From an uncultured Prevotella sp. (GTDB taxonomy: Bacteria; Bacteroidota; Bacteroidia; Bacteroidales; Bacteroidaceae): DNA of 64,000 bases. The stretch spans positions 13,372 to 77,371 of the forward strand of contig CALUEX010000050.1 in the NCBI GenBank assembly GCA_944319815.1, in the 5' to 3' direction. The translations under genes were made by a program, and so were the position numbers. This document shows positions 131 through 44,773 of this stretch, one piece after another. The stretch's first letter is position 1. Each line of letters starts with the position of its first letter. Under the pieces are notes generated by a model. The model did no database searches. It saw nothing but the letters and a program-made list of their open reading frames with translations, and had not been told where the DNA came from.

Positions 131-676
131 TCAACCTGCGTTGAAGACTTCGGAATAGCGCACTGTCCCACGTATGCCATTCAAACATCCACTCTTCAGC
201 TCTGCCACCATACAACATTCGTCAGGGGCCTCGAACGGGAACTTAATTCCAAACAATGAAGCCGTCTTGTAACCAAAGCGCTGATAATAGTCTTTATGCC
301 CAAGAAGCACGGCCACGCCATATCCCAATTCTGCCGCCCGCTTATGGGCTTCACTGATAAGCATTCCGCCAATTCCCCTTCCCTGGAAATCCGGATGCAC
401 GGACAATGGAGCAACAGCCAACGCCATACTGACTTTACCCTCACACTCCACGGTCACCCTTGACAGCAGGATATGCCCAACGACACGACCGCCGCAATCC
501 TCTGCCACCAATGACAGCTCTGGTATATACGCATCTGTTTCACGCAACTTTTCCACCAAAAGATGTTCCGTATGGTCACTTTCTTCCATATCCTTGAAAG
601 CCGTCATTATAACGTCGTTCACTTGACTGAAGTCACTTTTTGTTTCTTGCCTGATAATAATCTTATTATTCATCAT
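131..676 (-). CDS. GNAT family N-acetyltransferase (YhbS-like)
   Basis: ORF 181 aa; IIIRQET start, LAPLSVHPDFQGRGIGGMLI acetyl-CoA motif A, VLLGHKDYYQRFGY. Confidence 0.85.
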   Translation of the reverse strand: MMNNKIIIRQETKSDFSQVNDVIMTAFKDMEESDHTEHLLVEKLRETDAYIPELSLVAEDCGGRVVGHILLSRVTVECEGKVSMALAVAPLSVHPDFQGRGIGGMLISEAHKRAAELGYGVAVLLGHKDYYQRFGYKTASLFGIKFPFEAPDECCMVAELKSGCLNGIRGTVRYSEVFNAG

Positions 677-1342
677 TGCGCCTATTCGTCATTCTGATGC
701 AAAAATAATCATTTTTTATTGATTGAAGCCTGCTTGGGATTTCTATTCATACAATAATTCCATAATCTCGTTTTGTTTTTTAGTATGTTTTTTCATCGCA
801 TAAAAAGGACACCATCATGCACGATAAGCACGTATCAATGCTAACCGAAAGACATTTCCACAGTATGGCACTATCATGCTGTGAACAGGAACATCCTCTA
901 ATCACCAACCAAAGTCAACCGTAAAAAGCCAATGAACCACATTGGGCTGACGGCAACAATTCTACATAATTAAGGCTTCGCCGTTCAATACAGGCTGGCA
1001 TCAAGGCTGTATGTAACATATTTAGCCTGCAAGTTCTAACTCCCTGAATACCAAACCATTATAGGCAACAATGCAAACAGCCACATATCGGCTTGCAAAA
1101 CACGGCCTTTTAGACGCCGAAATAGCACATTCCAGCTTACGATATGTGGCATTTTACAGAATGCCAGACATTAAGCCACGGCTAATTGGATATTATGCAG
1201 ACGCATTCGGCAAATGATTGCTCCAACAGTGTCATGCCCAATGTTGAAGCAAATCATGGTCAATCGTAAATGCATTAACATCCAACTTGTCAGTAAATAT
1301 AATGCAATTATAATACAATATCATAATTTTACGGTAAAAATC

Positions 1343-1373
1343 TTGCACATTTAAAACAAAAGCATTACTTTTG
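1343..1373 (+). promoter_or_regulatory. Bacteroidales sigma-A promoter for the leader/pheA operon
   Basis: TTG at 1343-1345 and TACTTTTG (TAnnTTTG -7 consensus) at 1366-1373 with a 20-nt spacer, 25 nt before the leader ATG. Confidence 0.65.
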
Positions 1374-1398
1374 CCAGTGAATTTAAATAATTAAAGTC

Positions 1399-1476
1399 AT
1401 GAACAGGCAATACGCATCTTTCTTTTACTTTTATTTTTACTTTGCAAGGAATTGCGAAGCGGGAAGTTGCGTGTAA
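1399..1476 (+). CDS. Phe/Tyr-rich attenuator leader peptide MNRQYASFFYFYFYFARNCEAGSCV
   Basis: Hand translation: ATG 1399, TAA 1474-1476; 5 Phe + 4 Tyr, eight of them consecutive; lies directly upstream of a Phe/Tyr biosynthesis operon; not in the ORF track. Confidence 0.85.
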   Translation: MNRQYASFFYFYFYFARNCEAGSCV

Positions 1477-1520
1477 ATTTCAACTTAGGCAAACATATCT
1501 TGATACAGATACAAACAATG

Positions 1521-1553
1521 TCCCGCTTCAATTAAATGAGGCGGGATTTTTTT
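1521..1553 (+). terminator. Attenuator (rho-independent) terminator
   Basis: TCCCGCTTCA-ATTAAA-TGAGGCGGGA followed by T7; the 5' arm is also complementary to GAAGCGGGA (1456-1464) inside the leader ORF. Confidence 0.85.
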
Positions 1554-1590
1554 AATTAATTCAACCAAAAGTAAAACATAATGGCATAAC

Positions 1591-2463
1591 ATGAAAAGAA
1601 TAGCAATACAAGGTTCAATCGGGTCATTCCACGACATTGCAGCCCACCAATATTTCCAGGGCGAACAGATACAGTTAATCTGCTGCTCGACATTCGAGCA
1701 AGTGTTCGAGAACATCAAGCGCGACCCAACGGTCATCGGTATGCTGGCCATAGAGAACACCATTGCAGGCTCATTGCTCCACAACTATGAACTCCTGCGC
1801 AATTCCGGCACGACCATCGTCGGCGAGCACAAGTTGCACATCGAACACAGCATCTGCTGTTTGCCCGATGATTCATGGGACACGATAAAGGAAATACACT
1901 CGCACCCCGTCGCCTTGATGCAATGCCGTGGCTTCCTGGCAAACCACCCGGACATGAAAGCCGTCGAAGCCTCCGACACTGCCGGCGCCGCAAAGATGAT
2001 AGCAACGCAAAACTGTCGCGGATGGGCAGCTATATGCAATGCATCGGCAGCAAGACTTTATGGCATGAAAATACTTGAGGAATCTATAGAAGACAACAAG
2101 CATAATTTCACGAGGTTCCTCGTTGTTAGCAACCCTAACAAGGCGGACTTCCTGAGGCCATTGGAAACTACCAACAAGGCAAGCCTCGTATTCTCACTCC
2201 CGCATGAAGAAGGCAGCCTGTCACAAGTGCTGAGCATCCTCTACTTCTATAAAATCAACCTGACGAAAATACAGTCGCTGCCGATTATCGGGCATGAATG
2301 GGAATATATGTTTTACGTCGATGTAACTTTCGACAACCTGACTCGTTACCGTCAGAGCATTGACGCAATAATACCACTCACAAAAGAACTTAAAGTGTTA
2401 GGAGAATACAAAGATGACGGAAAACAACCACTCAACACTAATAAAACCGGCCAAGAGAATTGA
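1591..2463 (+). CDS. pheA: Prephenate dehydratase with ACT domain
   Basis: IAIQG..GSFH, AIENTIAGS, SHPVALMQC, NFTRF motif, NLTKIQSLP ACT signature. Confidence 0.93.
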   Translation: MKRIAIQGSIGSFHDIAAHQYFQGEQIQLICCSTFEQVFENIKRDPTVIGMLAIENTIAGSLLHNYELLRNSGTTIVGEHKLHIEHSICCLPDDSWDTIKEIHSHPVALMQCRGFLANHPDMKAVEASDTAGAAKMIATQNCRGWAAICNASAARLYGMKILEESIEDNKHNFTRFLVVSNPNKADFLRPLETTNKASLVFSLPHEEGSLSQVLSILYFYKINLTKIQSLPIIGHEWEYMFYVDVTFDNLTRYRQSIDAIIPLTKELKVLGEYKDDGKQPLNTNKTGQEN

Positions 2464-3601
2464 TGCCGTGGCTGAATATTACTTCAGCCGCAAACTCAAG
2501 GAAATAGCACGGCTGAACGCCGAAGGGCAGGACATAATCAGCCTTGCCATTGGCAGCCCTGATATGCCGCCTTCTAAAAAAACGATAGACAAGTTGTGTG
2601 AAGTTGCGCGACAAGACGACGCCCACGGTTACCAGCCTTCGGCAGGAACACCTGAATTGCGACAGGCCATGGCCGAATTCTACAAGCGTTGGTACGGCGT
2701 GGAACTTGACCCACAAACTGAAATACAACCGTTTATAGGTTCAAAAGAAGGCATCCTGCACGTGACGCTGGCTTTCGTCAACCCCGGAGAAAAAGTGCTC
2801 GTGCCAAATCCAGGATACCCTACTTATACATCGTTGAGCAAAATCCTCGGGGCGGAGGTAACATACTATAACCTGACAGAGGAGAATGGTTGGCAACCTG
2901 ATTTTGGCGAGCTCGAGCGTATGGATTTAAGCAACGTCAAACTTATGTGGACGAACTATCCCAATATGCCTACGGGAGCTGCCGCACACATTGAGACTTA
3001 CCGCAAGCTCGTAGACTTTGCCAAGCGTCACGGCATCGTCGTAGTAAATGACAACCCCTACTCTTTCATCCTCAACGAGCATCCGTTATCGCTGCTGCAA
3101 GTCGAGGGGGCGAAAGACTGCTGCATAGAGTTCAACTCGATGAGCAAAAGCCATAATATGCCTGGATGGCGAATTGGTATGTGCGCAACGAACAGCACCT
3201 TTATACAATGGATATTGAAGGTAAAGAGCAACATTGACTCCGGCATCTTCCGCGGGTTGCAGCTTGCCGCAGCCGAGGCATACCACAACAGCGACGAATG
3301 GCACAAGCAGGCAAACATCGAAATATACACCAACCGCCGTAAACTGGCTGAACAAATAATGACCGAGCTTGGTTGCACATTCGACAAGTCGCAAGTGGGA
3401 ATGTTCCTCTGGGGAAAAATCCCCGACATATACACCAACGCTGAAGAATTGACGGAAAAAGTGCTCCACAGAGCCAGGGTGTTCATAACGCCGGGATTTA
3501 TTTTCGGCAGCAACGGTGAACGATACATACGCATCTCACTATGCGCAAAAGACACGAAAATAAAAGAAGCATTAGAGAGGATTAAGAACATGACGGCATA
3601 G
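2414..3601 (+). CDS. PLP-dependent class I/II aminotransferase (probably aromatic/prephenate aminotransferase)
   Basis: GSKEG, NYPNMPTGA, DNPY, SMSKSHNMPGWRIG (PLP lysine), YIRISLC; operon context. Confidence 0.88.
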   Translation: MTENNHSTLIKPAKRIDAVAEYYFSRKLKEIARLNAEGQDIISLAIGSPDMPPSKKTIDKLCEVARQDDAHGYQPSAGTPELRQAMAEFYKRWYGVELDPQTEIQPFIGSKEGILHVTLAFVNPGEKVLVPNPGYPTYTSLSKILGAEVTYYNLTEENGWQPDFGELERMDLSNVKLMWTNYPNMPTGAAAHIETYRKLVDFAKRHGIVVVNDNPYSFILNEHPLSLLQVEGAKDCCIEFNSMSKSHNMPGWRIGMCATNSTFIQWILKVKSNIDSGIFRGLQLAAAEAYHNSDEWHKQANIEIYTNRRKLAEQIMTELGCTFDKSQVGMFLWGKIPDIYTNAEELTEKVLHRARVFITPGFIFGSNGERYIRISLCAKDTKIKEALERIKNMTA

Positions 3602-3654
3602 GCCATAACGAAGTAACATTTTGACCATTGAACAACATAAAAAAGCATAGATAT

Positions 3655-4719
3655 ATGGAACTTGAATTAGAACCGCTAAAACTGCCGAATGACAACGAAC
3701 GACTGACCGTCATTGCAGGGCCATGCTCCGCCGAGAGCGAAGAACAAGTGATGTCAACAGCCATGCAACTTGCAGCCAAGGGCTGCCACATCTTCCGTGC
3801 CGGAGTGTGGAAACCACGCACTAAGCCAGGGGGATTTGAAGGGCATGGAGAGAAAGCACTACCATGGTTGCAACACGTAAAAGAGACTACGGGGATGCTT
3901 GTTGGCATAGAGGTCGCAACCCCGGAGCACGTTGAACTGGCCTTGAAATATGGTATTGACATCTTGTGGATTGGAGCACGCACATCGGCAAACCCGTTTG
4001 CTGTACAGGCAATAGCCGACAGCCTGAAAGGCATCGACATACCTGTATTGGTTAAAAATCCTGTTAATCCTGACCTGGAATTGTGGATTGGAGCAATGGA
4101 ACGCATCAACCAAGCCGGCGTGAAACGCCTTGCTGCCATACACAGAGGCTTCTCAAGTTACGACAAGAAGATTTACCGTAACTTACCGATGTGGCAAATC
4201 CCCATCGAGCTTCGCCGCCGTGTACCCGACCTGCCAATCTTCTGTGACCCAAGCCATATCGGCGGAAGGCGCGAGTTGATAGCCCCGTTATGCCAACAGG
4301 CGATGGACCTCGGTTTCGACGGCCTGATTGTAGAAAGCCACTGCGACCCCGACAAGGCATGGAGCGATGCCAAGCAACAAGTGACGCCAGACGTATTAGA
4401 CTATATTCTTAGCCTGCTCGTCATACGCGACGAGACTGTCACAACCGAGGGCATAACCAATATGCGCCGGCAAATCGACGAAATTGACAACCAAATAATG
4501 GAAATGCTTACAAAAAGGATGCGTGTATGCCGCGAAATAGGCCAATTCAAGAAAGAGCACAACATGACCGTGCTACAGACATCGCGCTACAATGAAATAC
4601 TTGACAAACGTGGGGCACAGGGAGCACTATGCGGCATGGACCCGTCATTCGTCAAGACTGTGTTTGAAGCCATACACGAAGAGTCGGTAAGACAACAAAT
4701 GGAGATAGTAAACAAGTAA
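3655..4719 (+). CDS. Bifunctional DAHP synthase (type I-beta) / C-terminal chorismate mutase
   Basis: IAGPCSAES, RAGVWKPRT, IGART, DPSH; C-terminal RRQIDEIDNQIMEMLTKR AroQ domain; start moved to ATG 3655. Confidence 0.92.
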   Translation: MELELEPLKLPNDNERLTVIAGPCSAESEEQVMSTAMQLAAKGCHIFRAGVWKPRTKPGGFEGHGEKALPWLQHVKETTGMLVGIEVATPEHVELALKYGIDILWIGARTSANPFAVQAIADSLKGIDIPVLVKNPVNPDLELWIGAMERINQAGVKRLAAIHRGFSSYDKKIYRNLPMWQIPIELRRRVPDLPIFCDPSHIGGRRELIAPLCQQAMDLGFDGLIVESHCDPDKAWSDAKQQVTPDVLDYILSLLVIRDETVTTEGITNMRRQIDEIDNQIMEMLTKRMRVCREIGQFKKEHNMTVLQTSRYNEILDKRGAQGALCGMDPSFVKTVFEAIHEESVRQQMEIVNK

Positions 4720-4818: not shown

Positions 4819-5601
4819 ATGAAAATACTCGTTTTAGGAGCTGGTAAAATGGGCTGTTTTTTTCTCGACTTGCTAAGTTTTGAACACGAGACTGCAGTAT
4901 ATGAGAAGAAACCGGAACGTTTGAGGTTTACGTTCAATACCTTGCGATTTACGACAATGGAAGAAATTGAAAACTTCAAACCTGAACTCGTGATAAACGC
5001 AGTGACAGTAAAAAACACCCTCCCTGCATTTGAGGAAGTGCTGCCACATCTGCCCGATGACTGCATCATCAGCGATATTGCTTCTGTAAAGACCGGCCTG
5101 AAAGAATTTTACACCGAATGCAAGCACCGTTATGTATCTACACATCCAATGTTCGGCCCTACGTTCGCCAACCTTAACCAACTTAGTCATGAAAACGCGA
5201 TAATAATAAGCGAAGGCGACTACATCGGCAAGATATTCTTCAAAGACCTTTACCAACGTCTCGGACTAAGCATTTACGAATACACTTTTGAAGAACATGA
5301 CAAAACTGTAGCTTATTCATTGAGCATACCATTTGTCAGTACGTTTGTCTTTTCTGCCGTGATGAAGCACCAAGACGCCCCCGGCACGACCTTCAAACGG
5401 CACATGAACATAGCCAAAGGCGTACTTAGCGAAGACGACTACCTGCTGCAAGAAATACTTTTCAATCCGCACACATCAGGCCAAGTGGAACAAATCAGGT
5501 CTGAATTGAAAAAATTACTCGACATCATTGACAATAAAGACGAACATGGCATGAGCGAATACTTGGCTAAAATACGTGAAAACGTAAGGGCTAACTTATG
5601 A
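4819..5601 (+). CDS. tyrA: Prephenate dehydrogenase
   Basis: ILVLGAGKMG Rossmann motif, DIASVK, HPMFGP, EHD..VAY. Confidence 0.9.
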   Translation: MKILVLGAGKMGCFFLDLLSFEHETAVYEKKPERLRFTFNTLRFTTMEEIENFKPELVINAVTVKNTLPAFEEVLPHLPDDCIISDIASVKTGLKEFYTECKHRYVSTHPMFGPTFANLNQLSHENAIIISEGDYIGKIFFKDLYQRLGLSIYEYTFEEHDKTVAYSLSIPFVSTFVFSAVMKHQDAPGTTFKRHMNIAKGVLSEDDYLLQEILFNPHTSGQVEQIRSELKKLLDIIDNKDEHGMSEYLAKIRENVRANL

Positions 5602-44611: not shown

Positions 44612-44773
44612 ATTATTCAGGTAGTTAAAGTAGTTAAAGAAGTTATCACTCGCTTGCTCTCGTTAAGTAGTTAAAGACGTATGCTTCATCTTCAAACGCG
44701 GCAAGCAGGTATGTCGTCTTTAACTACTTTAACCGTATATACGCCTTGACTATAAATATTAAAATTACATACA

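What the first reader, a model, noticed from the sequence alone, without database searches (positions are those of the whole stretch)
1399..1553. Unannotated dual Phe/Tyr ribosome-mediated attenuator in a Bacteroidales aromatic operon
A 25-codon leader, MNRQYASFFYFYFYFARNCEAGSCV, has eight consecutive aromatic codons (FFYFYFYF, 1420-1443). Just downstream, GAAGCGGGA (1456-1464) is the perfect 9-nt complement of TCCCGCTTC (1521-1529), the 5' arm of a T7-tailed terminator. A ribosome stalled on the F/Y run would leave 1456-1464 free to act as antiterminator. A ribosome that reaches the stop at 1474 would cover it and allow termination. Alternating Phe/Tyr codons would let one leader sense both branch end-products of an operon encoding PheA and TyrA. 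Classical attenuation is established for enterobacterial pheA; I cannot confirm whether this Bacteroidales version has been described.
Basis: partly seen in the sequence, partly recalled or inferred. Interest (0 to 1): 0.72.

Follow-up and report, generated by a model that had tools for sequence, protein, structure and literature searches.

The report
Phe/Tyr leader-peptide attenuator before pheA
A short upstream reading frame packed with phenylalanine and tyrosine codons, followed by a switchable terminator, very probably turns a Prevotella aromatic amino acid operon on when those amino acids run short; it is real and conserved, but it is an ordinary kind of bacterial control already noted for the same gene in a related bacterial class.

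Summary
Window 1399-1476 encodes MNRQYASFFYFYFYFARNCEAGSCV. GAAGCGGGA (1456-1464) is the exact complement of the 5' arm (1521-1529) of an 11-bp, T7-tailed terminator 38 nt before pheA. The operon is pheA, aminotransferase, DAHP synthase/chorismate mutase, tyrA.

An equivalent leader was found in 80 of 83 relatives (PheA 65-93% identical; records labelled Prevotella, Segatella, Bacteroides, Phocaeicola, Muribaculaceae and others) and in five of seven more distant PheA lineages sampled.

Three mutually exclusive helices are conserved with compensatory changes: anti-antiterminator 1:2, antiterminator 2:3 and terminator 3:4. Aromatic codons vary mainly by synonymous or Phe<->Tyr changes.

It is therefore a classical ribosome-mediated transcription attenuator (about 0.85). 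Joint Phe and Tyr sensing is plausible but inferred (about 0.55).

No Rfam 15 family matches, and I found no paper describing the Bacteroidales version. However, Guerin et al. 2021 annotated a pheA leader-peptide attenuator (…FYFYW…) in Flavobacterium psychrophilum, and C. glutamicum aroR is a published Phe-Tyr-Phe leader.

Verdict: a new member of a known kind, of moderate interest. No RNA evidence could be obtained.

The parts
1366..1373 (+). Predicted Bacteroidota -7 promoter box TACTTTTG (TAnnTTTG); the transcription start is predicted near 1380
   Evidence: Sequence. TAnnTTTG lies 21-62 nt upstream of the leader ATG in 72 of 80 related elements. The consensus is as reported for F. psychrophilum, B. 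thetaiotaomicron and S. copri. The start site itself is inferred, not mapped.
1399..1476 (+). Leader ORF, 25 codons plus TAA: MNRQYASFFYFYFYFARNCEAGSCV
   Evidence: An ATG-initiated aromatic-rich ORF is found at the same place in 80 of 83 relatives. The context upstream of the ATG is A-rich.
1420..1443 (+). Regulatory codon run FFYFYFYF (TTC TTT TAC TTT TAT TTT TAC TTT)
   Evidence: Across 80 elements the last four codons are near-invariant (TAY TTT TAC TTT). Positions -4 to -8 swap Phe and Tyr freely. Departures from the consensus codon are 81 synonymous, 110 F<->Y and 50 other.
1440..1447 (+). Region 1: 5' strand of the anti-antiterminator hairpin, overlapping the last Tyr/Phe codons
   Evidence: MFE fold. 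The helix 1440-1447/1452-1459 is paired in 93.9% of cells against at most 57% in slid registers, with 29 double-change cells.
1452..1464 (+). Region 2: 1452-1459 pairs with region 1, and 1456-1464 (GAAGCGGGA) pairs with region 3 as the antiterminator
   Evidence: The 2:3 helix is paired in 90.7% of cells against 35-53% slid, with GC->AU (7) and AU->GC (8) compensatory changes. Own-locus duplexes average -17.5 kcal/mol against -16.2 cross-locus, with 0 of 5000 permutations as low.
1520..1530 (+). Region 3: 5' arm of the terminator, shared with the antiterminator
1537..1547 (+). Region 4: 3' arm of the terminator
   Evidence: The 3:4 helix is paired in 84.9% of cells against at most 56% slid, and 8 of 11 pairs have compensatory changes (57 cells). 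The hairpin energy is -17.8 kcal/mol.
1547..1553 (+). T7 tract of the intrinsic terminator
   Evidence: Most relatives have T-rich tails.
1591..2463 (+). pheA, prephenate dehydratase with ACT domain (first regulated gene)
   Evidence: Pfam PDT 3.4e-57 and ACT.
2414..3601 (+). Class I/II aminotransferase
   Evidence: Pfam Aminotran_1_2 9e-64. The same gene order is seen in L001-L003.
3628..4719 (+). DAHP synthase fused to chorismate mutase
   Evidence: Pfam DAHP_synth_1 1.5e-42 and CM_2 3.4e-25.
4819..5601 (+). tyrA, prephenate dehydrogenase (the true start may lie further upstream)
   Evidence: Pfam PDH_N 1.9e-10. In L001 the homologue is 287 aa and starts 7 nt after the preceding gene.

Best explanation
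This is a classical ribosome-mediated (leader-peptide) transcription attenuator. It controls the operon pheA, aminotransferase, DAHP synthase/chorismate mutase, tyrA.

Proposed mechanism. Transcription starts about 20 nt before the leader ATG. A ribosome translates the 25-codon leader while RNA polymerase moves on.

When Phe-tRNA and Tyr-tRNA are plentiful, the ribosome runs through the FFYFYFYF run to the stop at 1474. There it covers region 2 (1452-1464). After it leaves, region 2 is captured by region 1 in the hairpin 1440-1447/1452-1459. Region 3 then pairs with region 4, the terminator forms, and transcription ends at the T7 tract (1547-1553), before pheA.

When charged tRNA-Phe or tRNA-Tyr is scarce, the ribosome stalls on the last aromatic codons (A site about 1432-1441). 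The stall melts helix 1:2 but leaves GAAGCGGGA free. That segment pairs with TCCCGCTTC (1521-1529) as soon as it is made. This blocks the terminator, and polymerase reads into the operon.

What is shown: the sequence features, their conservation and covariation, and the codon pattern. What is inferred: translation of the leader, the 3' end at the T tract, and the response to Phe and Tyr. I put the attenuator reading at about 0.85 and a real response to both amino acids at about 0.55.
For: Conservation: an aromatic-rich leader ORF is found 63-244 nt upstream of pheA in 80 of 83 relatives with PheA 65-93% identical. It is also found in 5 of 7 lineages at 42-53% identity. In one of these, L085, the pairing core itself has co-changed (GGCAGGA/TCCTGCC, duplex -17.9 kcal/mol).

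Structure: all three helices hold across 80 distinct sequences with compensatory changes, and 0 of 500 shuffles reach the observed covariation. Own-locus 2:3 duplexes are stronger than cross-locus ones (0 of 5000 permutations).

Geometry: the GCGG core of region 2 lies a median 15 nt after the last aromatic codon.

Coding signal: departures from the consensus codon are mainly synonymous (81) or Phe<->Tyr (110), against 50 to other residues.

Promoter: a Bacteroidota -7 box precedes 72 of 80 leaders.

Folding: with a ribosome mask, the 2:3 helix forms in the nascent RNA in every state except a ribosome at the stop codon. Helix 1:2 is lost only when the A site is on the last four codons, Y-F-Y-F.

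Precedent: F. psychrophilum has a pheA leader of the same design, with a mapped 5' transcript and condition-dependent read-through.
Against: There is no direct evidence of transcription start, 3' ends, leader translation or amino acid response. The public RNA runs were available only as assembled contigs and were uninformative.

At equilibrium the full-length RNA prefers the terminator in nearly all masked states. The nascent RNA prefers the antiterminator even with no ribosome. The decision therefore has to be kinetic, which cannot be computed here.

The last four codons are also the 5' strand of helix 1:2, so their invariance is not independent evidence for Tyr sensing.

In C. glutamicum aroR (Phe-Tyr-Phe) only Phe limitation had an effect.

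The shuffle controls do not remove the relatedness of the sequences, so the 0/500 figures overstate significance.
Confidence: 0.8

Rival explanations
1. The attenuator works the same way but in practice responds to phenylalanine only, or very unequally. On this reading the Tyr codons are kept mainly because UAC/UAU supply bases for helix 1:2 and an A/U-rich leader, not because Tyr-tRNA is sensed.
For: In the only tested Phe/Tyr leader, C. glutamicum aroR, Tyr availability had no effect. The invariant TAC TTT at the end of the run is part of helix 1:2. Guerin et al. labelled the F. psychrophilum element 'phenylalanine biosynthesis'.
Against: At positions -4 to -8, outside the core 8-bp helix, Phe and Tyr codons interchange freely and in about equal numbers, while other single-nucleotide neighbours (Leu, Ile, Val, Ser, Cys) are rare. 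Every leader keeps at least one Tyr and two Phe in its last 10 codons. The operon encodes both the Phe and the Tyr branch enzymes.
Confidence: 0.25
2. The leader and terminator form an independent small gene, either a small hydrophobic peptide or a roughly 170-nt sRNA with its own terminator. On this reading it merely neighbours pheA and does not regulate it.
For: The unit has its own promoter-like box and a strong terminator. Terminated leader transcripts can have functions in trans in other bacteria (general knowledge).
Against: The unit is linked to pheA in 80 of 83 relatives and in distant lineages, even though the genes further upstream differ. The peptide's C-terminal half and the stop position vary between lineages (…CEAGSCV, …SNKVKRE…, …TKE) while the RNA pairing segments are kept. 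The antiterminator covaries with the terminator arm, which a plain terminator does not need. No separate promoter box for pheA is evident in the median 27 nt between terminator and ATG.
Confidence: 0.05
3. The element is a ligand- or protein-controlled RNA switch, such as a riboswitch, a T-box-like element or a TRAP/PyrR-like protein-binding site. It would use the same terminator/antiterminator pair, and the short ORF would be incidental.
For: The terminator/antiterminator alternation alone does not identify the sensor.
Against: No Rfam 15 family matches beyond terminator-driven noise (E of 0.15 or worse, all far below gathering scores), and there are no gathering-level hits anywhere in the window. 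The only conserved segment beyond the helices is the in-frame aromatic codon run with an ATG, and it changes in the way a coding sequence does. The spacer between regions 2 and 3 is unconserved and varies from 28 to 65 nt, leaving no aptamer-sized conserved structure.
Confidence: 0.04

Closest known systems
Flavobacterium psychrophilum pheA-aspC3 leader peptide attenuation element (THC0290_N_0195; Guerin et al. 2021, ISME Commun 1:33, PMC9723704, SI D9 and Table S7)
   Same: Same phylum and same first gene, with pheA followed by an aminotransferase. It has a leader ORF of similar size (27 aa, MNTNNTFYSNNSFYFYWNIGRDCYMVI) with tandem Phe/Tyr codons. A region-2 segment inside the ORF (GGGATTGT) is complementary to the 5' arm of a T-tailed terminator (ACAATCCCGTC…GGCGGGAT-T9). 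No Rfam family covers it.
   Different: It comes from a different class (Flavobacteriia, not Bacteroidia). Sequence homology is not demonstrable: an HMM of the 80 Bacteroidales elements gives only 9 bits, over the terminator. Its aromatic run is shorter, is interrupted and ends in Trp. That element has a mapped transcript and expression data; this one has none.
Escherichia coli pheA attenuator (pheL leader; Rfam Phe_leader RF01859)
   Same: It works the same way: a short leader rich in the end-product's codons, then anti-antiterminator, antiterminator and terminator helices ahead of pheA. Its regulation by Phe-tRNA is summarised.
   Different: pheL carries Phe codons only, and E. coli tyrA is not in that operon (general knowledge). 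There is no sequence or structure match: the Rfam scan of 1200-1700 at E up to 10 does not list RF01859. Here the run mixes Phe and Tyr, and the operon includes tyrA and DAHP synthase/chorismate mutase.
Corynebacterium glutamicum aroR leader upstream of aroF (Neshat et al. 2014, as summarised in PMC11802643)
   Same: It is a leader peptide with mixed Phe and Tyr codons (Phe-Tyr-Phe) controlling an aromatic-pathway operon by attenuation. The idea of joint Phe/Tyr sensing was raised there.
   Different: It is from an unrelated phylum, has only three aromatic codons, and regulates DAHP synthase rather than pheA/tyrA. Experimentally only Phe limitation acted.
Bacteroid-trp leader (Rfam RF01692; Weinberg et al. 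2010, PMC2864571)
   Same: It is the curated example showing that Bacteroidota use leader-peptide attenuation for an aromatic amino acid operon.
   Different: It has Trp codons and sits before the trp operon, and it is a different RNA family. It gives no hit here.
Multivalent attenuators of E. coli (thr leader with Thr+Ile codons; ilvGMEDA leader with Ile/Leu/Val)
   Same: One leader carries codons for more than one amino acid, so starvation for any of them relieves termination (general knowledge, not tested here).
   Different: They involve different amino acids, different operons and unrelated sequences.

Membership tests
Ribosome-mediated (leader-peptide) transcription attenuators | A short ORF with a start codon lies in the 5' leader of an amino acid biosynthetic operon | tested here: met
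   ORF 1399-1476, 114 nt before pheA. Present in 80 of 83 relatives.
Ribosome-mediated (leader-peptide) transcription attenuators | The leader carries clustered codons for the pathway's end product(s) | tested here: met
   Eight consecutive Phe/Tyr codons at 1420-1443 (0 expected by chance). Aromatic identity is conserved through synonymous and F<->Y changes. The operon makes Phe and Tyr.
Ribosome-mediated (leader-peptide) transcription attenuators | An intrinsic terminator lies between the leader ORF and the first structural gene | tested here: met
   11-bp stem 1520-1547 plus T7, energy -17.8 kcal/mol. Conserved, with 8 covarying pairs.
Ribosome-mediated (leader-peptide) transcription attenuators | An antiterminator helix is mutually exclusive with the terminator | tested here: met
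   1456-1464 pairs with 1521-1529. 90.7% of cells paired across 80 sequences, with compensatory changes. Own-locus pairing beats cross-locus pairing.
Ribosome-mediated (leader-peptide) transcription attenuators | An anti-antiterminator helix overlaps the regulatory codons, so that a stalled ribosome frees region 2 | tested here: met
   1440-1447 pairs with 1452-1459, 93.9% of cells paired, 29 double-change cells. Ribosome-mask folding loses helix 1:2 only with the A site at 1432-1441.
Ribosome-mediated (leader-peptide) transcription attenuators | The leader is translated, and read-through rises when the cognate charged tRNA is scarce | not testable with these tools
   Only Logan contigs of RNA runs were available. 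Depth is flat or absent over the leader. No Ribo-seq or Term-seq data were accessible.
Rfam Phe_leader (RF01859), Leu/phe leader (RF01743), Bacteroid-trp (RF01692) and other curated leader families | A match to the family covariance model | tested here: not met
   cmscan of 1200-1700 at E up to 10 lists none of them, only weak terminator-driven hits. The gathering-level scan of the whole window gives 0 hits.
F. psychrophilum-type pheA leader (Guerin et al. 2021) | Same gene context and the same leader/antiterminator/terminator layout | tested here: met
   The published sequence has an F/Y(W) run, GGGATTGT complementary to ACAATCCC of the terminator's 5' arm, and a T9 tail, ahead of pheA-aspC3.
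F. psychrophilum-type pheA leader (Guerin et al. 2021) | Detectable sequence homology to that element | tested here: inconclusive
   nhmmer with the A2 profile gives 9.0 bits over the terminator only (best of 700 decoys 2.8 bits). L085 at 53% PheA identity gives 31 bits over the full length.
T-box leaders / riboswitches | A conserved ligand- or tRNA-binding structure upstream of the terminator/antiterminator | tested here: not met
   No Rfam hit. The spacer between regions 2 and 3 is unconserved and 28-65 nt long.

The most novel reading that the evidence does not exclude
The leader is a true two-input sensor. The four codons whose A-site occupancy melts helix 1:2 alternate Tyr-Phe-Tyr-Phe and are almost invariant across Bacteroidales. 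Shortage of either charged tRNA alone would then open the whole Phe+Tyr operon. That would make it the first aromatic attenuator shown to respond to both amino acids, since Tyr had no effect in C. glutamicum aroR. It would also be a convenient natural reporter of transcription-translation coupling in Shine-Dalgarno-poor Bacteroidota.
Probability: 0.5. Interest if true: 0.5.

Novelty: new member of a known kind. Interest (0 to 1): 0.4.

Why it matters
Prevotella/Segatella and Bacteroides are dominant gut bacteria, and their aromatic amino acid metabolism feeds host-relevant metabolites. Very little is known about how they regulate amino acid biosynthesis.

This element is a concrete, widely conserved and currently uncatalogued control point for their Phe/Tyr pathway. 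It is absent from Rfam 15 and is not called as a gene in the contigs examined.

It could be added to annotation pipelines as an RNA family with a leader ORF. It could also be used as a native Phe/Tyr-responsive switch in Bacteroidales genetics. Finally, it offers a way to test whether ribosomes couple to RNA polymerase in a phylum that largely lacks Shine-Dalgarno sequences.

Conceptually it extends a textbook mechanism and does not reveal a new one.

Tried and rejected
RNA evidence. I searched public RNA runs for the window and for Segatella copri G8 (L052) and laid them on the loci. Only assembled contigs were available. Chicken-gut metatranscriptomes gave depth 2-7 over pheA and nothing over the leader. 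The isolate transcriptomes gave flat contigs spanning leader and pheA. Neither supports nor refutes termination at the T tract.

Rfam. A permissive scan of 1200-1700 gave only terminator-driven weak hits (rli38, ncr1575, PyrG_leader and others, all far below gathering scores). The whole window gave no hit at gathering level.

Literature. Ten full-text searches found no description of a Bacteroidales pheA/tyrA leader. The B. thetaiotaomicron map mentions only unspecified sORFs 'reminiscent of leader peptides'. The S. copri RNA landscape preprint mentions no attenuators. Naville and Gautheret 2010 mention neither Bacteroidetes nor pheA. Vitreschak et al. 2004, which I recall as listing some attenuators in Bacteroidetes/Chlorobi, is not held. 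Prior mention there cannot be excluded.

Equilibrium folding of the full leader with ribosome masks did not by itself reproduce the switch, because the terminator wins in almost every state. Only the nascent-RNA model did.

Homology to the F. psychrophilum element could not be shown by profile HMM.

A window-wide scan for other leader-like ORFs followed by terminators found only false positives.

I considered and rejected the reading of the T-rich run in other frames (…LLLLFLL…). The conserved ATG is in the F/Y frame, and frame +2 has stop codons in 14 of 80 elements.

Full report
1. The observation

Reading window 1100-1800 and listing ORFs confirms every coordinate in the finding. An ATG at 1399 opens a 25-codon frame, MNRQYASFFYFYFYFARNCEAGSCV, which ends with TAA at 1474-1476. 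Codons 1420-1443 are eight consecutive Phe/Tyr codons. GAAGCGGGA (1456-1464) is the exact reverse complement of TCCCGCTTC (1521-1529). The latter is the 5' arm of an 11-pair hairpin (1520-1530/1537-1547, loop of 6) followed by seven T (1547-1553).

The 9-mer occurs nowhere else in the 64-kb window on either strand (0.39 expected). A run of eight TWY codons occurs once, against none expected. The 176-nt leader RNA folds at -45.3 kcal/mol, z = -4.65 against dinucleotide shuffles.

A hairpin, 1440-1447/1452-1459, joins the last aromatic codons to the 5' half of the antiterminator segment. It is extended by 1418-1423/1461-1466 and 1410-1416/1468-1474.

2. Context

Four genes follow on the same strand:
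- prephenate dehydratase with an ACT domain (1591-2463);
- a class I/II aminotransferase (2414-3601);
- a DAHP synthase/chorismate mutase fusion (3628-4719);
- prephenate dehydrogenase (4819-5601).

The operon therefore makes both Phe and Tyr from the common pathway.

A Bacteroidota-type -7 promoter box, TACTTTTG (TAnnTTTG), lies at 1366-1373, 25 nt before the leader ATG. The sequence just upstream of the ATG is A-rich, as expected for a phylum with few Shine-Dalgarno sites (consensus as quoted).

The PheA protein is 88-100% identical to many Prevotella-type proteins from gut metagenomes. The runs holding the window sequence are mostly chicken-gut samples.

3. Comparative evidence

I aligned the window's PheA with diverse representatives and scanned one genome per species of GTDB. 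This returned 80 loci with PheA 65-89% identical. Their records are labelled Prevotella, Segatella, Palleniella, Prevotellamassilia, Paraprevotella, Bacteroides, Phocaeicola, Muribaculaceae and others. Three further loci at 93% identity came from a contig look-up.

In 80 of these 83 relatives, an ATG-initiated ORF of 14-34 codons ends 63-244 nt upstream of pheA. Each has at least 6, and usually 8-9, aromatic residues in a 9-residue window.

The leaders fall into three types:
- …FYFYFA.NCEAGSCV (Prevotella-like);
- …FYFFFYFYFSNKVKRE… (Bacteroides/Phocaeicola-like);
- short forms ending …FYFYFTKE.

The stop codon falls before, just after, or 20-30 nt after region 2, depending on type. The RNA segments keep the same order and spacing throughout. 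The GCGG core of region 2 lies a median 15 nt after the last aromatic codon. The terminator ends a median 27 nt before pheA.

On an alignment of 80 distinct elements (A2), I counted pairs for the three helices taken from the window:

| Helix | Cells paired | Best slid register | Compensatory changes |
|---|---|---|---|
| Antiterminator 2:3 | 90.7% | 53.3% | 16 cells (GC->AU x7, AU->GC x8) |
| Terminator 3:4 | 84.9% | 55.9% | 57 cells, in 8 of 11 pairs |
| Anti-antiterminator 1:2 | 93.9% | 56.7% | 29 cells |

No shuffle out of 500 reached the observed covariation score or paired fraction for any helix. These sequences are related, so the shuffle figure overstates significance. The slid-register control, which keeps relatedness, is the more telling one.

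An alignment-free test agrees. Region 2 pairs with its own terminator arm at a mean of -17.5 kcal/mol. This compares with -16.2 for arms from other loci (0 of 5000 permutations as low), -8.9 for shuffled arms and -5.7 for other upstream windows.

A visible example: leaders reading …CRAGS (AGAGCGGGA) sit with terminator arms TCCCGCTCT, while …CEAGS (GAAGCGGGA) sits with TCCCGCTTC.

4. Evidence that the frame is read

In the last eight codons of the run, departures from the consensus codon are 81 synonymous, 110 Phe<->Tyr and 50 to other residues. Most of the 50 are at one position that tolerates Gly or Ser.

The last four codons are almost invariant (TAY TTT TAC TTT). Positions -4 to -8 exchange Phe and Tyr freely and in about equal numbers. 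Other single-nucleotide neighbours of TTY and TAY are rare. This is the pattern expected if the aromatic codons themselves are selected.

Every leader keeps at least two Phe and one Tyr in its last ten codons. Trp is rare (6 in 80 leaders).

One caution applies. The final TAC TTT is also the 5' strand of helix 1:2, so its invariance has two possible causes.

5. Breadth

I sampled PheA representatives at 42-53% identity through contig look-ups. Five of seven carry aromatic-rich leaders with terminators before pheA:
- L085: MNNASFAFSFWFYFYFIR;
- L086;
- L087: MTRFSGSYFYYFYFNHIDD;
- L088;
- L089.

In L085 the pairing core itself has co-changed to GGCAGGA/TCCTGCC (duplex -17.9). The whole L085 element still matches a profile of the 80 sequences (31 bits). 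L089 has two tandem leader-terminator units. Two lineages lack the leader: L084, where pheA follows frr by 8 nt, and L090.

Among the close relatives, L044 has lost the leader ORF and region 2. In L043, pheA is joined to a trp-like gene array. L013 has only 72 nt of upstream sequence, too little to judge. The taxonomy of the distant contigs is unknown.

6. How it most likely works

The anatomy is that of the trp/pheA attenuators of enterobacteria. I modelled a ribosome as a mask from 15 nt before to 11-14 nt after the first base of the A-site codon.

With the complete leader RNA at equilibrium, the local terminator almost always wins. The choice must therefore be kinetic, as in the classical systems.

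For the nascent RNA, once region 3 has emerged but region 4 has not, the model gives the following:
- the nine-pair antiterminator forms in every state except a ribosome at stop codon 1474, which covers region 2 (0 of 9 pairs);
- helix 1:2 is lost only when the A site is on the last four codons (1432-1441: Tyr, Phe, Tyr, Phe).

With ample Phe-tRNA and Tyr-tRNA, the ribosome reaches the stop and masks region 2. Alternatively, helix 1:2 closes behind it, which is probably what matters in lineages whose stop lies farther away. Either way the terminator forms and transcription stops at 1547-1553.

When either charged tRNA is short, the ribosome stalls on the end of the run. Helix 1:2 cannot form, region 2 pairs with region 3 as soon as region 3 appears, and polymerase reads into pheA.

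The helices, their exclusivity and their conservation are shown. Translation of the leader, the 3' end, coupling to polymerase and the amino acid response are inferred.

7. What could not be shown

All public RNA runs that hold this sequence or the Segatella copri homologue were available only as assembled contigs. They either miss the leader (depth 2-7 over pheA) or give flat contigs running from upstream of the leader into pheA. This says nothing about termination.

8. Comparison with what is known

No Rfam 15 family matches. A permissive scan gave only weak, terminator-driven hits, and the whole window has no hit at gathering level. The element is thus not a member of Phe_leader, Leu/phe leader or Bacteroid-trp.

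The kind is not new, however, even for this gene and phylum. Guerin et al. [quoted passage not shown] They reported a mapped transcription start, read-through in specific conditions and conservation in other Flavobacteriaceae, and noted the absence of an Rfam hit. Its sequence has the same layout: GGGATTGT inside the ORF is complementary to ACAATCCC of the terminator arm. Profile search does not establish sequence homology with the Bacteroidales family (9 bits over the terminator only).

Mixed Phe/Tyr leaders also have a precedent, aroR (Phe-Tyr-Phe) before aroF in Corynebacterium glutamicum. There, Phe limitation but not Tyr availability affected transcription. Leaders that sense several amino acids, such as thr and ilv in E. 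coli, are textbook knowledge.

Ten full-text searches found no paper describing the Bacteroidales element. The B. thetaiotaomicron and S. copri transcriptome papers do not mention it. Vitreschak et al. 2004, which from memory lists some attenuators in Bacteroidetes/Chlorobi, could not be read.

9. Verdict

I rate it a new, uncatalogued member of a well-known kind.

- Confidence that it is a ribosome-mediated attenuator of the pheA-tyrA operon: about 0.85.
- Confidence that both Phe and Tyr are effective signals: about 0.55.
- Interest: 0.4. A specialist would not be surprised. The element is nonetheless widespread in major gut bacteria, is missing from Rfam, and would be a useful tool and test case for transcription-translation coupling in Bacteroidota.

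Noticed in passing
L089:1100-1500: In a distant PheA lineage (46% identity, forest-soil metagenome contig), two complete aromatic leader-terminator units lie in tandem before pheA. The first is MNNSRNYIVYNSFYFFYYR with a T7-tailed hairpin. The second is MNTGLQFFANGFYYFFYYKRRRELHM with a T9-tailed hairpin. This looks like a tandem attenuator.
   Followed up: partly
L044:3890-4003: In this Prevotella MAG the leader ORF and region 2 are missing. A TAATTTTG promoter box is followed directly by a weakened hairpin (TCCCGCC…GGTGGGA-T5) that ends a few nt before pheA. This appears to be a natural loss of the sensor part.
   Followed up: partly
L043:2528-3340: pheA starts 5 nt after a 266-aa TrpA-like ORF, at the end of an array of four co-directional ORFs resembling a trp operon, and has no F/Y leader of its own.
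   Followed up: no
L084:719-1300 and L090:900-1271: Two distant PheA lineages have no aromatic leader. In L084 pheA follows the ribosome recycling factor gene by 8 nt. In L090 the 364-nt upstream region holds no F/Y-rich ORF.
   Followed up: partly
window 677-1365: About 690 nt between the GNAT acetyltransferase gene (131-676, minus strand) and the leader promoter hold no ORF longer than 48 codons and no Rfam match. In close relatives the gene upstream of the leader is different, so synteny breaks here.
   Followed up: no
L052:4830-4930: In Segatella copri G8, a 99-nt stretch just after pheA is replaced by an unrelated 36 nt in the strains used for RNA-seq. A 35-nt piece (4837-4871) recurs in many separate high-depth contigs, which suggests a short dispersed repeat.
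   Followed up: no
window 44681-44749 (+) and 56806-56738 (-): Two short ORFs with residue runs (Thr-rich MLHLQTRQAGMSSLTTLTVYTP and Cys-rich MCCGCCVPNIGCRLATTDGRGA) were flagged by a leader-like scan but are false positives. The first sits 25 nt before a 552-aa gene that contains the supposed terminator. The second lies inside a 573-aa ORF on the opposite strand.
   Followed up: yes
window 1-64000: No Rfam family reaches its gathering score anywhere in the 64-kb window: no tRNA, riboswitch or known leader.
   Followed up: yes
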